Source: a phage. Taken from it: DNA of 64,000 nucleotides. Where the stretch lies: the sequence record PZ347775.1; one strand, given 5' to 3'. Shown here piece after piece: positions 3,694 to 4,715 of this stretch. The translations under genes were made by a program, and so were the position numbers. Under the pieces are notes generated by a model. The model saw only the letters and a list, made by a program, of their open reading frames with translations. It was not told the DNA's origin and did not search any database. The number at the start of each line of letters is the position of its first letter. Position 1 is the stretch's first letter.

Positions 3694-3769
3694 TGGTCGA
3701 GGCAGTAGGGATCGAACCTACGACCTAGGACTTAGAAGGTCCTTGCTCTTCCTTCTGAGCTATGCCCCG
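3694..3769 (-). tRNA. tRNA-Arg (anticodon UCU)
   Basis: Manual cloverleaf: acceptor CGGGGCA/TGCCTCG, D-stem GCTC/GAGC, anticodon stem AGGAC/GTCCT, loop CTTCTAA, T-arm GTAGG-TTCGATC-CCTAC, CCA encoded. Confidence 0.85.
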
Positions 3770-3773
3770 TAAT

Positions 3774-3849
3774 TGGGGTGACCGATGGGAGTCGAACCCA
3801 TGACTACGAGAATCACAATCTCGAGTTCTACCAACTGAACTACGGCCAC
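3774..3849 (-). tRNA. tRNA-His (anticodon GUG); no G-1 encoded
   Basis: Acceptor GTGGCCG/CGGTCAC, anticodon stem CGAGA/TCTCG, loop TTGTGAT, T-arm ATGGG-TTCGACT-CCCAT, discriminator C, CCA encoded. Confidence 0.8.
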
Positions 3850-3963
3850 ATTAATACCTACTCCAACAATCAAGATGTCTTCACACGAAATTAAGAGAAG
3901 AGTGATCAGTTCAACCCCGATAATCGCGTCAAGTAGATATTAATGTGACAGTTGTCACAAATT
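3850..3963 (-). other. 114-nt spacer inside tRNA array with hairpin TGTGACA..TGTCACA; candidate small stable RNA or tRNA remnant
   Basis: Non-coding gap between tRNA-His and tRNA-Asn, much longer than other inter-tRNA spacers; contains a palindrome. Confidence 0.25.
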
Positions 3964-4038
3964 TGGCGGACGTGATAGGATTCGAACCTATAACCAATCG
4001 CTTAACAGGCGATCGCTCTGCCATTGAGCTACACATCC
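3964..4038 (-). tRNA. tRNA-Asn (anticodon GUU)
   Basis: Acceptor GGATGTG/CACGTCC, D-stem GCTC/GAGC, anticodon stem ATCGC/GCGAT, loop CTGTTAA, T-arm ATAGG-TTCGAAT-CCTAT, CCA encoded. Confidence 0.85.
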
Positions 4039-4042
4039 AAAT

Positions 4043-4129
4043 TGGTGGGGAGTGATGGAGTCGAACCACCCGAGTCGCAATGACAATGGATTTACAGTCC
4101 ACACCGCTACCTCTACGGGATAACTCCCC
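4043..4129 (-). tRNA. tRNA-Tyr (anticodon GUA), long variable arm
   Basis: Acceptor GGGGAGT/ACTCCCC, anticodon stem GTGGA/TCCAT, loop CTGTAAA, long variable arm, T-arm GGTGG-TTCGACT-CCATC, CCA encoded. Confidence 0.8.
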
Positions 4130-4142
4130 TTAATTCTTAATT

Positions 4143-4217
4143 TGGTGGCCCTGGGTGGAATTGAACCACCATCTGGCGATTATGAGTCGCTTGCTTGAAC
4201 CTTCCAGCTACAGGGCC
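4143..4217 (-). tRNA. tRNA with CAU anticodon (elongator Met or lysidine-type Ile)
   Basis: Acceptor GGCCCTG/CAGGGCC with G1-C72 (so not initiator-like), anticodon loop CTCATAA, T-loop TTCAATT, CCA encoded. Confidence 0.75.
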
Positions 4218-4218
4218 T

Positions 4219-4294
4219 TGGTGCTGATTGACGGAATCGAACCGCCGACCTTCTCATTACAAGTGAGTTGCTCTACCTACTGAGCTAAATCAGC
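4219..4294 (-). tRNA. tRNA-Thr (anticodon UGU)
   Basis: Acceptor GCTGATT/AATCAGC, D-stem GCTC/GAGC, anticodon stem ACTCA/TGAGA, loop CTTGTAA, T-arm GGCGG-TTCGATT-CCGTC. Confidence 0.85.
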
Positions 4295-4299
4295 AAAAC

Positions 4300-4389
4300 T
4301 GGCGGAGGCGATAGGATTTGAACCTATGAGTCGCCGGAGCGACTGCCGGTTTTCAAGACCGGTGCATTAAACCACTCTGCCACGCCTCC
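4300..4389 (-). tRNA. tRNA-Ser (anticodon UGA), long variable arm
   Basis: Acceptor GGAGGCG/CGCCTCC, anticodon stem CCGGT/ACCGG, loop CTTGAAA, long variable arm, discriminator G. Confidence 0.85.
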
Positions 4390-4391
4390 AG

Positions 4392-4465
4392 TCTCCATAC
4401 AAGGATTTGAACCTTGGACCTCCTGATCCCAAATCAGGCGCTCTACCAAACTGAGCTACACGGAG
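4392..4465 (-). tRNA. tRNA-Pro (anticodon UGG); CCA not encoded; 2 nt from tRNA-Ser
   Basis: Acceptor CTCCGTG/TATGGAG (two G-U pairs), anticodon stem CCTGA/TCAGG, loop TTTGGGA, T-arm CAAGG-TTCAAAT-CCTTG. Confidence 0.8.
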
Positions 4466-4475
4466 TAAATTAAAT

Positions 4476-4549
4476 TGGAGCGGATAATGAGAATCGAACT
4501 CACATCATCAGATTGGAAGTCTGAGGTAATGCCATTATACGATATCCGC
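4476..4549 (-). tRNA. tRNA-Gly (anticodon UCC)
   Basis: Acceptor GCGGATA/TATCCGC, anticodon stem TCAGA/TCTGA, loop CTTCCAA, T-loop TTCGATT, discriminator U. Confidence 0.85.
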
Positions 4550-4554
4550 AAATT

Positions 4555-4641
4555 TGGTGCGAGAAGTGGGACTCGAACCCACAAGGAAATCATTCCGCAG
4601 CATTTTAAGTGCTGTGCCTTTACCAATTTGACCATTCTCGC
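4555..4641 (-). tRNA. tRNA-Leu (anticodon UAA), long variable arm
   Basis: Acceptor GCGAGAA/TTCTCGC, anticodon stem AGCAC/GCTGC (one mismatch), loop TTAAAAT, T-arm GTGGG-TTCGAGT-CCCAC. Confidence 0.85.
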
Positions 4642-4642
4642 G

Positions 4643-4715
4643 CTGGGAATAAAGGACTCGAACCTTTGCATCCTGGAATCAAAATCCAGTGCCTTACCAA
4701 CTTGGCTAATTCCCA
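4643..4715 (-). tRNA. tRNA-Gln (anticodon UUG); CCA not encoded; 1 nt from tRNA-Leu
   Basis: Acceptor TGGGAAT/ATTCCCA, anticodon stem CTGGA/TCCAG, loop TTTTGAT, T-arm AAAGG-TTCGAGT-CCTTT, discriminator G. Confidence 0.85.

What the first reader, a model, noticed from the sequence alone, without database searches (positions are those of the whole stretch)
3694..4715. Eleven-gene tRNA array with His, Asn and Tyr added to the canonical T4 set
Manual folding gives, in transcription order, Gln(UUG), Leu(UAA), Gly(UCC), Pro(UGG), Ser(UGA), Thr(UGU), CAU-anticodon tRNA, Tyr(GUA), Asn(GUU), a 114-nt spacer, His(GUG), Arg(UCU). The T4 set as I recall it is eight (Gln, Leu, Gly, Pro, Ser, Thr, Ile, Arg), so Tyr, Asn and His look like additions. 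Pro/Ser and Gln/Leu are 2 nt and 1 nt apart with no encoded CCA on the upstream member, as in T4 dimeric precursors. The His tRNA has no encoded G-1 (a U precedes G1), which is unusual for a bacterial-type tRNA-His. Extra phage tRNAs can offset host anticodon nucleases or codon-usage mismatch.
Basis: partly seen in the sequence, partly recalled or inferred. Interest (0 to 1): 0.45.

Follow-up and report, generated by a model that had tools for sequence, protein, structure and literature searches.

The report
Standard T-even tRNA cluster, odd tRNA-His
This is the ordinary, already-annotated 11-tRNA gene cluster of a common group of T4-like phages, but its tRNA-His lacks the usual extra 5' G and sits behind a conserved folded leader RNA that pairs across the tRNA's 5' end, which may be worth an experiment.

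Summary

**The set is not new.**
- The window is a Tequatrovirus, 99.8% identical to phage ECO07P2.
- About 190-250 GenBank phage records carry the same array.
- It equals the RB14 set (Gln, Leu, Gly, Pro, Ser, Thr, Ile-CAU, Tyr, Asn, Arg) plus a [114-nt spacer + His] module.
- T4 is the derived form. A segB homing-endonuclease cassette sits where Tyr, Asn and His lie here, and SegB's preferred cut site is in the tRNA-Asn gene (published 2008).
- Phage tRNA-Tyr countering Septu and retron-Eco7, and tRNA-Asn/Thr countering PARIS, are also published.

**What remains interesting is tRNA-His.**
- The missing G-1 is real (U-1, C73) and is shared by T4-like and T5-like phages. All 33 other distinct tRNA-His sequences sampled, plus Erwinia phage phiEa104, encode G-1.
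- The spacer is a covarying structured RNA, absent from Rfam.
- Its closing helix ends at -1 and can extend to tRNA position 5, giving 14-21 contiguous pairs across the processing site in both phage families.
- T5's annotation shows the same layout: stable RNA III abuts a tRNA-His drawn with U-1.
- His codons are rarer in the phage than in the host, so codon supply does not explain this gene.

The parts
4642..4715 (-). tRNA-Gln(UUG). No encoded CCA, 1 nt before Leu. The anticodon stem-loop differs from T4's (66/74 identical) but matches RB14's (73/74).
4555..4641 (-). tRNA-Leu(UAA), identical to T4's (87/87).
4476..4549 (-). tRNA-Gly(UCC), 73/74 identical to T4's.
4391..4465 (-). tRNA-Pro(UGG). 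No encoded CCA, 2 nt before Ser. Identical to T4's (75/75).
4300..4389 (-). tRNA-Ser(UGA). CCA is encoded here, unlike in T4. Identical to the T2 and RB14 genes (90/90).
   Evidence: PMC2330249
4219..4294 (-). tRNA-Thr(UGU), identical to RB14's (76/76).
4143..4217 (-). CAU-anticodon tRNA, most likely tRNA-Ile2 (reads AUA after lysidine modification). It shares only its first 12 nt with T4 tRNA-Ile and is identical to the RB14 and T2 copy (75/75).
   Evidence: RB14/RB51 annotation
4043..4129 (-). tRNA-Tyr(GUA) with a long variable arm. 85/87 identical to the T6 tRNA-Tyr shown experimentally to counter Septu.
   Evidence: PMC13096335
3964..4038 (-). tRNA-Asn(GUU), identical to T2's (75/75). In T2L this gene holds the preferred SegB cleavage site. 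Positions 36-41 read UAAGCG, against UAAUCC in E. coli.
   Evidence: PMC2330249; PMC12409363
3850..3963 (-). Conserved structured leader RNA. It has a small hairpin (3944-3959), the closing helix P1 (5' arm 3931-3944, 3' arm 3850-3863) and inner helices at 3925-3929/3883-3887, 3911-3918/3894-3901 and 3876-3879/3865-3868. The leader motif GUCACA (3944-3949) can also pair with U-1 and G1-C5 of tRNA-His (3845-3850), giving 19 contiguous pairs across the 5' processing site.
3774..3849 (-). tRNA-His(GUG). C73 and CCA are encoded, and the base at -1 (position 3850) is U, so there is no encoded G-1.
3694..3769 (-). tRNA-Arg(UCU), a different sequence from T4's tRNA-Arg (48/79) but close to the T2 and RB14 copy (74/76).
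3327..3677 (-). ORF of 116 aa, function unknown (phrog_3355, no Pfam match). Also present in T2 and RB51 after their tRNA-Arg, and absent from T4.
3211..3330 (-). Homologue of T4 stable RNA rnaD (species 2 RNA), 100/121 identical.
3066..3204 (-). Homologue of T4 stable RNA rnaC (species 1 RNA), 136/139 identical.
2992..3015 (-). Intrinsic terminator hairpin followed by a T run, the same as the one after T4 rnaC. It marks the end of the tRNA transcription unit.

Best explanation
This is the tRNA gene cluster of a T4-like phage (Tequatrovirus) in its commonest long form: the RB14/T2-type set plus a [structured leader + tRNA-His] module between Asn and Arg.

How it is made (inferred from established T4 biology and shared sequence). 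The array, ORF116 and the rnaD- and rnaC-like RNAs are transcribed as one unit ending at the terminator near 2992-3015. Host RNase P and 3'-processing enzymes cut it up, and the host CCA-adding enzyme completes Gln and Pro.

What it does.
- The eight tRNAs shared with T4 read A-ending codons that the AT-rich phage uses 1.5 to 5 times more than the host does.
- Tyr and Asn serve codons used about 1.5 times more.
- By published experiments on near-identical or analogous phage tRNAs, they also replace host tRNAs cut by defence nucleases (Septu and retron-Eco7 cut Tyr; PARIS cuts Thr and Asn).

Why T4 differs. T4 carries the alternative cassette [Ile - segB - Arg]. Its SegB endonuclease cuts the tRNA-Asn gene of genomes like this one and converts the region.

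The tRNA-His module is the unusual part. The gene lacks G-1, and its leader folds into a closed, covarying structure whose terminal helix runs up to -1 and can continue to tRNA position 5. My preferred reading, inferred and not shown, has two parts. First, this helix fixes the 5' cut one nucleotide upstream, so the mature tRNA keeps U-1 and its 5'-phosphate, which is the element HisRS needs. Second, the excised leader survives as a stable small RNA, as T5 RNA III does.
For: Identity of the genome and how common the array is.

Comparison with T4, T6, T2, RB14 and RB51. The window's tRNAs are 74/76 to 90/90 identical to RB14's.

Unit boundaries (rnaD, rnaC, terminator).

Tyr versus Septu and retron-Eco7: PMC13096335.

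Thr and Asn versus PARIS: PMC12409363. The window's Asn lacks the UAAU motif.

Codon usage.

CAU tRNA as Ile2.

Leader structure:
- Fold z-score -2.98.
- RNAalifold predicts 29 pairs.
- 96% of cells are paired, with 9 pairs showing double changes against 3.6 +/- 1.3 in shuffles (0/500) and 0-2 in slid controls.

U at -1 occurs only in T4-like and T5-like phages, and G at -1 in all 33 other distinct sequences and in phiEa104.

The helix ending at -1 is specific to His.

The 14-21 bp helix across the processing site, against 5-12 bp for G-1 genes.

T5's annotation gives a 78-nt tRNA-His that includes U-1, with stable RNA III ending at -2.

G-1's role is to position the 5'-phosphate, and its loss lowers charging more than 100-fold: PMC9976931 and PMC5499578.
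Against: - No expression, processing or charging data exist for this phage. The processing pathway is carried over from T4 and T5.
- U at -1 is normally a signal for RNase P to cut at the canonical -1/+1 site, which would give a tRNA-His with no -1 nucleotide at all.
- The element is not strictly tied to His. In a Vequintavirinae phage (A7_1) it lies 11 nt before tRNA-Gln, and in STP4-a it precedes only a stump of His. It may therefore have a function of its own.
- In Jiaodavirus and a few other lineages a mismatch interrupts the extension into the tRNA.
- The sequences sampled are related, so the statistics overstate independence.
- The E. coli codon frequencies used for comparison were taken from memory.
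- Whether T5's 78-nt annotation rests on RNA sequencing could not be checked.
Confidence: 0.85

Rival explanations
1. One reading: Tyr, Asn and His are recent, noteworthy additions to a canonical eight-gene T4 set.
For: T4 has only eight tRNAs. Relative to RB14, T2 and RB51, the [leader + His] module is an extra 194 nt between Asn and Arg.
Against: The 11-gene array is in about 190-250 records. Tyr and Asn are in T2, T6 (Tyr only), RB14 and RB51, and were published for T2L, RB1 and RB3 in 2008. At this spot T4 holds a mobile segB cassette that overwrites the T2-type region. Other Tevenvirinae genera have 13-15 tRNAs at this locus, including Tyr, Asn and His.
Confidence: 0.1
2. The leader is an independent stable small RNA with its own, unknown function. 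Its helix ends at -1 only because a blunt, fully paired 3' end left by RNase P protects it from 3' exonucleases. The missing G-1 of tRNA-His is unrelated.
For: The element occurs without an adjacent His in A7_1. T4 (rnaC, rnaD) and T5 (RNA I, III, IV, X and others) tRNA regions are rich in stable RNAs of unknown function. The core sequence is conserved across genera.
Against: This view does not explain three things. Unrelated leader sequences in two phage families sit specifically before the U-1 type of tRNA-His. The helix continues into tRNA positions 1-5 or 1-7 using a copy of the acceptor 3' strand. Lineages with quite different leader interiors keep the terminal helix.
Confidence: 0.3
3. 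tRNA-His is not a working translator. Without G-1 it is barely charged, and it acts as a decoy or sponge for nucleases that cut GUN-anticodon tRNAs (colicin E5-like; PARIS weakly), or it is a decaying gene.
For: Loss of G-1 lowers HisRS efficiency more than 100-fold. His codons are under-used in the phage, at 0.59 times the host level. The anticodon loop is identical to host hisR. Colicin E5 cuts Tyr, His, Asn and Asp tRNAs (PMC1635277 abstract), and faint His cleavage by AriB has been reported.
Against: The gene is almost invariant across three genera, with a perfect cloverleaf, C73 and CCA, so it is not decaying. T5's annotation states that its U-1 tRNA-His becomes an effective amber suppressor when the anticodon is changed, so that body is charged and used by ribosomes, although the amino acid it then carries is not stated.
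Confidence: 0.15
4. The spacer is a DNA-level signal (a promoter, a CRP-type protein site or a homing-endonuclease target), or it encodes the 22-aa antisense peptide.
For: It contains a perfect TGTGA-N6-TCACA palindrome at 3944-3959. An ATG-to-TAA frame of 22 codons on the plus strand (starting at 3875) is also open in the Klebsiella phage copy (read by eye from the sequences).
Against: No sigma-70-like promoter was found on the transcribed strand in the spacer, and promoter-like sites are no more frequent than in shuffled sequence. Compensatory changes on both arms of three helices point to a folded single strand. The peptide's C-terminal half is not conserved, and the best-conserved bases show no codon-like pattern (alignment A3). 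The palindrome is missing or differently spaced in other genera.
Confidence: 0.05

Closest known systems
tRNA gene region of phages RB14, T2/T2L and RB51 (Tequatrovirus)
   Same: Same locus and order, with near-identical genes: Asn 75/75, CAU tRNA 75/75, Ser 90/90, Tyr 86/87 and Arg 74/76, plus Thr 76/76 with RB14. ORF116 follows Arg as in T2 and RB51, and rnaD and rnaC come downstream.
   Different: The window has an extra 194 nt (114-nt leader, tRNA-His, 4 nt) between Asn and Arg. RB14, T2 and RB51 have Asn and Arg 4 nt apart.
Phage T4 tRNA cluster (Gln, Leu, Gly, Pro, Ser, Thr, Ile, segB, Arg, rnaD, rnaC)
   Same: Upstream region and Gln to Thr are collinear and mostly 96-100% identical. 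Gln-Leu and Pro-Ser are dimers without CCA on the first member. The rnaD and rnaC RNAs and the terminator match.
   Different: From nt 13 of the CAU tRNA to the start of rnaD the sequences are unrelated. T4 has its own Ile, the segB homing endonuclease and a different Arg. The window has Ile2-like, Tyr, Asn, leader, His, another Arg and ORF116.
Phage T5 stable RNA III plus tRNA-His
   Same: A closed, multi-branched RNA of about 106 nt directly abuts a tRNA-His that has U at -1 and C73. The terminal helix ends at -1 and extends to tRNA position 5 through a GCCACA motif, giving 20 contiguous pairs.
   Different: There is no detectable sequence similarity between the two leaders, and the phage family is different (Demerecviridae). 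RNA III is annotated in the T5 record as a stable RNA. The window's leader has never been looked for.
Bacterial tRNA-His (E. coli hisR)
   Same: 80% identical, with the same anticodon loop, the same C73-CCA end and the same G1-U2-G3-G4-C5 start.
   Different: hisR encodes G at -1 and its leader forms no long helix. The phage gene has U at -1, A at -2 and a 19-bp leader helix across the cut site.
Phage tRNAs that counter tRNA-cutting defence systems (T6/T5 tRNA-Tyr against Septu and retron-Eco7; T5 tRNA-Lys/Thr/Asn against PARIS)
   Same: The window's tRNA-Tyr is 85/87 identical to T6's. Its tRNA-Asn has changes at positions 39 and 41 next to the AriB cut site, as the resistant T5 variants do.
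   Different: Nothing was tested for this phage. In the T6 study Septu cleaved the phage tRNA-Tyr as well as the host's, and rescue came from higher tRNA-Tyr dosage. The window has no segB gene next to Tyr to drive amplification.

Membership tests
T-even (Tequatrovirus) tRNA gene cluster | Lies at the conserved locus, downstream of the trna.2-4 ORFs and upstream of rnaD, rnaC and the terminator. | tested here: met
   The closest relative's ORFs upstream of Gln are 288, 405 and 186 nt, against 288, 411 and 186 nt for T4 trna.2-4. About 70 nt upstream of Gln is near-identical to T4. rnaD, rnaC and the terminator align.
T-even (Tequatrovirus) tRNA gene cluster | Shares the core genes Gln, Leu, Gly, Pro, Ser and Thr in T4 order with near-identical sequence. 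| tested here: met
   Identity to T4: Leu 87/87, Pro 75/75, Gly 73/74, Thr 73/76, Ser 87/91, Gln 66/74.
T-even (Tequatrovirus) tRNA gene cluster | Has dimeric precursors in which the upstream member (Gln, Pro) has no encoded CCA. | tested here: met
   Read directly from the sequence. Actual processing was not tested.
RB14/T2-type cassette (CAU tRNA, Tyr, Asn, alternative Arg) | Gene-by-gene identity to the RB14 and T2 copies. | tested here: met
   CAU tRNA 75/75, Tyr 86/87, Asn 75/75, Arg 74/76.
RB14/T2-type cassette (CAU tRNA, Tyr, Asn, alternative Arg) | Asn is directly followed by Arg. | tested here: not met
   The leader and His (194 nt) lie between them, so this is a longer variant of the cassette.
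Bacterial-type tRNA-His | GUG anticodon, cloverleaf, and C73 followed by CCA. | tested here: met
   ARAGORN and Rfam at 65 bits; alignment with hisR.
Bacterial-type tRNA-His | Genome-encoded G at -1 that can pair with C73. | tested here: not met
   T at -1 in the window and in every T4-like and T5-like copy examined. G at -1 in 33 other distinct sequences and in phiEa104.
Bacterial-type tRNA-His | The mature tRNA carries an extra 5' nucleotide and is charged by HisRS. | not testable with these tools
   Needs 5'-end mapping and charging assays. T5's annotation draws its tRNA-His with U-1.
tRNA-Ile2 (CAU anticodon read as AUA after lysidine modification) | Resembles host tRNA-Ile(CAU) rather than tRNA-Met. 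Has the C4-G69 and C5-G68 pairs (the pairs I recall TilS using to recognise tRNA-Ile2) and the same anticodon stem-loop. | tested here: met
   The best E. coli match is annotated tRNA-Ile, 81.6% over the full length. The acceptor stem and the GCGACUCAUAAUCGC stem-loop are shared. RB14 and RB51 annotate it as Ile.
tRNA-Ile2 (CAU anticodon read as AUA after lysidine modification) | C34 is modified to lysidine and the tRNA is charged with isoleucine. | not testable with these tools
   Requires analysis of the RNA itself.
Stable non-tRNA RNAs of phage tRNA regions (T4 rnaC/rnaD, T5 RNA I/III) | Lies inside the tRNA transcription unit, bounded by tRNA processing sites. | tested here: met
   The leader runs from the CCA end of Asn to -1 of His.
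Stable non-tRNA RNAs of phage tRNA regions (T4 rnaC/rnaD, T5 RNA I/III) | Has a conserved secondary structure. | tested here: met
   Covariation in three helices.
Stable non-tRNA RNAs of phage tRNA regions (T4 rnaC/rnaD, T5 RNA I/III) | Shows sequence homology to a known member. | tested here: not met
   No significant similarity to T5 RNA I, RNA III or rna1, or to the window's rnaC- and rnaD-like RNAs. No Rfam family matches.
Stable non-tRNA RNAs of phage tRNA regions (T4 rnaC/rnaD, T5 RNA I/III) | Accumulates as a discrete RNA in infected cells. | not testable with these tools
   Needs a northern blot or small-RNA sequencing.
Anti-defence phage tRNAs | Supplying the phage tRNA restores infection in cells carrying the tRNA-cutting defence system. 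| not testable with these tools
   Shown for T6 tRNA-Tyr (85/87 identical to the window's) and for T5 tRNAs in PMC13096335 and PMC12409363. Not tested for this phage.

The most novel reading that the evidence does not exclude
Large virulent enterobacterial phages of two unrelated families (T4-like Straboviridae and T5-like Demerecviridae) make tRNA-His by a non-canonical route. The gene has U instead of G at -1. A dedicated leader carries a copy of the acceptor 3' strand plus an A opposite U-1, and it forms a 14-21 bp helix across the 5' processing site. This helix, rather than a G-1:C73 pair, would decide where the 5' end is cut, either by RNase P shifted to -2/-1 or by RNase III acting on a duplex of about 20 bp. 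The result would be a U-1 tRNA-His whose 5'-phosphate satisfies host HisRS, with a stable leader RNA as a second product.
Probability: 0.3. Interest if true: 0.6.

Novelty: already known. Interest (0 to 1): 0.33.

Why it matters
The array itself matters only as context. It is a textbook phage tRNA cluster, and its variation among T-even phages (segB homing, tRNA-Tyr against Septu, tRNA-Asn and tRNA-Thr against PARIS) is already an active and published topic.

The tRNA-His module is different. G-1 is close to a universal identity mark of tRNA-His, and in bacteria it is thought to be always encoded and retained by an unusual RNase P cut. [quoted passage not shown] It would also assign a first role to one of the long-unexplained stable RNAs of phage tRNA regions, such as T5 RNA III.

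Tried and rejected
- **Promoter in the spacer.** The scan found no sigma-70-like site on the transcribed strand there, and sites overall are no more frequent than in shuffled sequence. By eye there is no T4 middle (MotA box) or late (TATAAATA) motif.
- **Degenerate tRNA in the spacer, for example Asp.** ARAGORN and Rfam find nothing.
- **Known RNA family.** Rfam 15 at E up to 10 on the spacer alone returns only chance snoRNA and miRNA hits at 12-15 bits.
- **Hammerhead-like core (CUGAUCA ... GAA).** Considered by eye and rejected, because the junction bases are not conserved across genera and Rfam has no hit.
- **Antisense 22-aa ORF.** Its frame is kept in the Klebsiella phage, but the peptide's C-terminal half is not conserved and the variation is not codon-like (alignment A3).
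- **Origin in bacteria.** The conserved 31-nt core has no match in 185,579 species genomes. IMG/VR adds only T4-like contigs already seen.
- **Homology of the leader to T5 RNA III or to rnaC/rnaD.** None found.
- **Literature on phage tRNA-His lacking G-1, or on T5 tRNA-His carrying U-1.** Three searches found nothing relevant, and Himeno 1989 is not held. My recollection that old tRNA compilations list T5 tRNA-His with U-1 could not be verified and is used only as a lead.
- **A phage Thg1-like enzyme that could add G-1.** Not searched for. PMC2904730 lists a Thg1-type sequence only from Pseudomonas phage 201phi2-1.
- **Technical note.** Searches failed because locus L002 was not yet available to scripts, so DNA alignment was used instead.
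Full report
**1.

Rfam's tRNA model scores ten of them at 59-74 bits, and Tyr is retained as the related long-arm model. The sequence confirms the details:
- Gln and Pro have no encoded CCA and sit 1 nt and 2 nt before Leu and Ser.
- The other nine encode CCA.
- A 114-nt gap separates Asn from His.
- tRNA-His is preceded by U (with A at -2) and ends C73-CCA.
- E. coli hisR, 80% identical, has G at -1.

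**2. What genome this is, and how common the array is.**

The region is 99.8% identical to Escherichia phage ECO07P2 (Tequatrovirus), which is annotated with the same 11 tRNAs. In the phage collection:
- 250 records cover at least 80% of 3600-4800.
- 187 records cover at least 80% of the Tyr-Asn-spacer-His block.
- 131 records carry T4-type segB.

**3. Relation to the classical phages.**

| Phage | tRNA region in transcription order | tRNA genes |
|---|---|---|
| T4 | Gln Leu Gly Pro Ser Thr Ile / segB / Arg, rnaD, rnaC | 8 |
| T6 | Gln Leu Gly Thr Met(CAU) Tyr / segB / Arg | 7 |
| T2 | Gln Leu Gly Pro Ser / ORF / Met(CAU) Tyr Asn Arg / ORF116 | 9 |
| RB14 | Gln Leu Gly Pro Ser Thr Ile(CAU) Tyr Asn Arg | 10 |
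| RB51 | as RB14, with an endonuclease gene in place of Pro | 9 |

The window equals RB14 gene for gene: Asn 75/75, CAU tRNA 75/75, Thr 76/76, Ser 90/90, Tyr 86/87 and Arg 74/76. It adds 194 nt (leader, His, 4 nt) between Asn and Arg.

Against T4, the window is near-identical from the upstream region to nt 12 of the CAU tRNA, unrelated from there to the start of rnaD, and similar again afterwards. These are two alternative cassettes between fixed flanks.

The 2008 SegB paper (PMC2330249) already showed three things:
- T2L, RB1 and RB3 carry Met(CAU), Tyr, Asn and an isoacceptor Arg.
- T4 converts that region to its own in mixed infection.

The window's tRNA-Asn is identical to T2's, so this genome is a predicted SegB recipient (inference).

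Other Tevenvirinae genera hold 13-15 tRNAs at this locus, including Tyr, Asn and His. One Tequatrovirus has a segB-like gene inserted between His and Arg. The region is a known mosaic hot spot, and T4's set of eight is one reduced variant, not the baseline.

**4. The transcription unit.**

Downstream of Arg lie:
- a 116-aa ORF of unknown function (phrog_3355, no Pfam match), also present in T2 and RB51;
- an rnaD homologue at 3211-3330 (100/121 identical);
- an rnaC homologue at 3066-3204 (136/139 identical);
- the same terminator as T4 at 2992-3015.

**5. Likely functions.**

The CAU tRNA is best read as tRNA-Ile2. Its best host match is annotated tRNA-Ile (81.6% over the full length). It shares the C4-G69 and C5-G68 pairs and the whole anticodon stem-loop with that gene. 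RB14 and RB51 annotate it as Ile.

Codon counts in 59 long ORFs of the window were compared with approximate E. coli values taken from memory:
- The eight codons served by the T4-shared tRNAs are 1.5 to 5.1 times more frequent in the phage.
- Tyr and Asn codons are about 1.5 times more frequent, and UAU and AAU are 2.0 and 2.45 times more frequent.
- His codons are only 0.59 times as frequent.

Published experiments give a second role.
[quoted passage not shown] More T6 tRNA-Tyr (85/87 identical to the window's) restores infection. T4, which lacks the gene, cannot escape (PMC13096335).
- **Thr and Asn.** PARIS (AriB) cuts Lys(UUU), Thr(UGU) and, less efficiently, Asn(GUU) next to a U36-A-A-U39 motif, and T5 variants of these tRNAs neutralise it (PMC12409363). 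The window's Asn reads U36-A-A-G39, so the motif is absent. Resistance to AriB is an inference.
- **Tyr, His, Asn, Asp.** Colicin E5 cuts exactly these four tRNAs (PMC1635277 abstract).

**6. The spacer is a structured RNA.**

It is conserved together with tRNA-His in 356 phage records across Tequatrovirus, Jiaodavirus, Karamvirus and Gelderlandvirus, and it also occurs in one Vequintavirinae phage.

It folds with z = -2.98. Seven divergent copies give a consensus of a 14-bp closing helix plus inner helices. The pair counts are:
- 96% of cells paired;
- 9 pairs with changes on both sides, against 3.6 +/- 1.3 in shuffles (0 of 500 reach the observed value);
- 0-2 such pairs in the slid controls.

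There is no Rfam match, no copy in 185,579 bacterial and archaeal species genomes, and no second copy in the window.

In phage A7_1 the element lies between Gly and Gln. In STP4-a it precedes only a stump of His. It is therefore not absolutely tied to His.

**7. The missing G-1 is a lineage trait linked to a helix over the 5' end.**

In a sample of viral contigs, T at -1 occurs in 9 distinct tRNA-His sequences, all in T4-like arrays. G at -1 occurs in the 33 other distinct sequences, six of them in tRNA arrays.

T5 and three other Demerecviridae genera also have T at -1. An Ounavirinae phage has G at -1.

A stem ending exactly at -1 is 14-15 bp in most T-at-minus-1 genes, against 3-9 bp for 52 other tRNAs with comparable spacers. 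In T5 it is 15 bp for His, 13 bp ending at -2 for Asn, and 8 bp or fewer for the other 21 tRNAs.

In the full precursor the helix continues into the tRNA. The leader motif G(U/C)CACA is a copy of the acceptor 3' strand with an A opposite U-1, and it pairs with U-1 and G1-C5. The contiguous helix lengths are:

| Lineage | Contiguous pairs across the 5' end |
|---|---|
| Window type (Tequatrovirus) | 19 |
| Karamvirus | 19 |
| L155 | 20 |
| 221-225 kb T4-like contigs (L075, L084) | 14-16 |
| T5 | 20 |
| polluks | 21 |
| DU_PP_V | 21 |
| RP7 | 17 |
| All tRNA-His genes with G at -1 | 5-12 |

A few lineages (Jiaodavirus and others) have a mismatch at the junction.

The stems differ in sequence between lineages, and the leader interiors are unrelated between the two phage families. 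What is conserved is therefore the architecture, not the sequence.

T5's GenBank record draws tRNA-His as 78 nt including U-1. It places the 106-nt 'stable RNA with unknown functions' RNA III so that it ends at -2. It also notes that this tRNA becomes an effective amber suppressor when its anticodon is changed. RNA III folds with z = -3.8 into a closed structure whose last pair includes U-1.

**8. Interpretation.**

In E. coli, G at -1 and U at -2, together with the G-1:C73 pair, send RNase P to the -2/-1 site, and loss of G-1 lowers charging more than 100-fold (PMC5499578). The main job of G-1 is to position the 5'-phosphate (PMC9976931).

The phage gene has none of the usual signals, yet it is almost invariant across genera. 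The most economical reading is that the leader helix takes over the choice of cut site, so that U-1 is kept, and that the excised leader persists as a stable RNA. This is inference.

The rival readings cannot be excluded without 5'-end mapping and charging assays. They are an independent small RNA whose blunt 3' end merely protects it, or a poorly charged decoy tRNA.

**9. Verdict.**

The sub-observation about G-1 is correct. Together with the structured leader, it is the one part that a tRNA specialist might find surprising.

Noticed in passing
window 3944-3959: A perfect TGTGA-N6-TCACA palindrome, which matches the core of the E. coli CRP-site consensus, sits at the 5' end of the spacer. [quoted passage not shown] Roughly 0.06 such sites would be expected by chance in 64 kb.
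   Followed up: partly
window 4642-4715 compared with L002 4458-4531: tRNA-Gln differs from T4's in the anticodon stem, with compensatory changes, and at loop positions 32 and 38 (UUUUGAU against CUUUGAC). The rest of the gene is identical. The window's form is the RB14 form (73/74).
   Followed up: partly
window 4219-4294: tRNA-Thr has an A27/A43 mismatch at the top of the anticodon stem where T4 has C27-G43. RB14 is identical to the window.
   Followed up: no
L010 289-400 and L007 1323-1430: Karamvirus and Gelderlandvirus loci carry a second conserved non-tRNA element of about 110 nt (AATTAGAGTGTAACGGTAAGTCC...) between tRNA-Gln and the His leader. It is absent from the window.
   Followed up: no
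L005 1676-2296 (phage vB_EcoM_11B_SA_NWU): A segB-like endonuclease gene is inserted between His and Arg of an otherwise identical 11-tRNA array, and it replaces the encoded CCA of tRNA-His.
   Followed up: partly
L187 13953-14030 (T5 tRNA-Asn): T5 tRNA-Asn also has a 13-bp stem ending at -2 within a 158-nt span upstream. It is the only other T5 tRNA with such a helix.
   Followed up: no
window about 3903-3910; L188 and L189 about 20-27 nt before tRNA-His: The motif CUGAUCA lies in a hairpin loop of the window's leader (its best-conserved core) and recurs in the otherwise unrelated leaders of the T5-like phages polluks and DU_PP_V. L075 has GUGAUCA. This may be chance, since the BLAST E-values are about 1.
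   Followed up: partly
window 3327-3677: The 116-aa ORF (phrog_3355, unknown function, no Pfam match) travels with the T2/RB51-type tRNA-Arg and is absent from T4. Its stop codon overlaps the start of the rnaD-like RNA.
   Followed up: partly
L004 (phage T4_ev240) 2763-3245 and 3641-4249: In this relative, ORFs of 160 and 202 aa replace tRNA-Thr and tRNA-Gln. This is another sign that single tRNA genes in this cluster are swapped for ORFs, possibly homing endonucleases.
   Followed up: no
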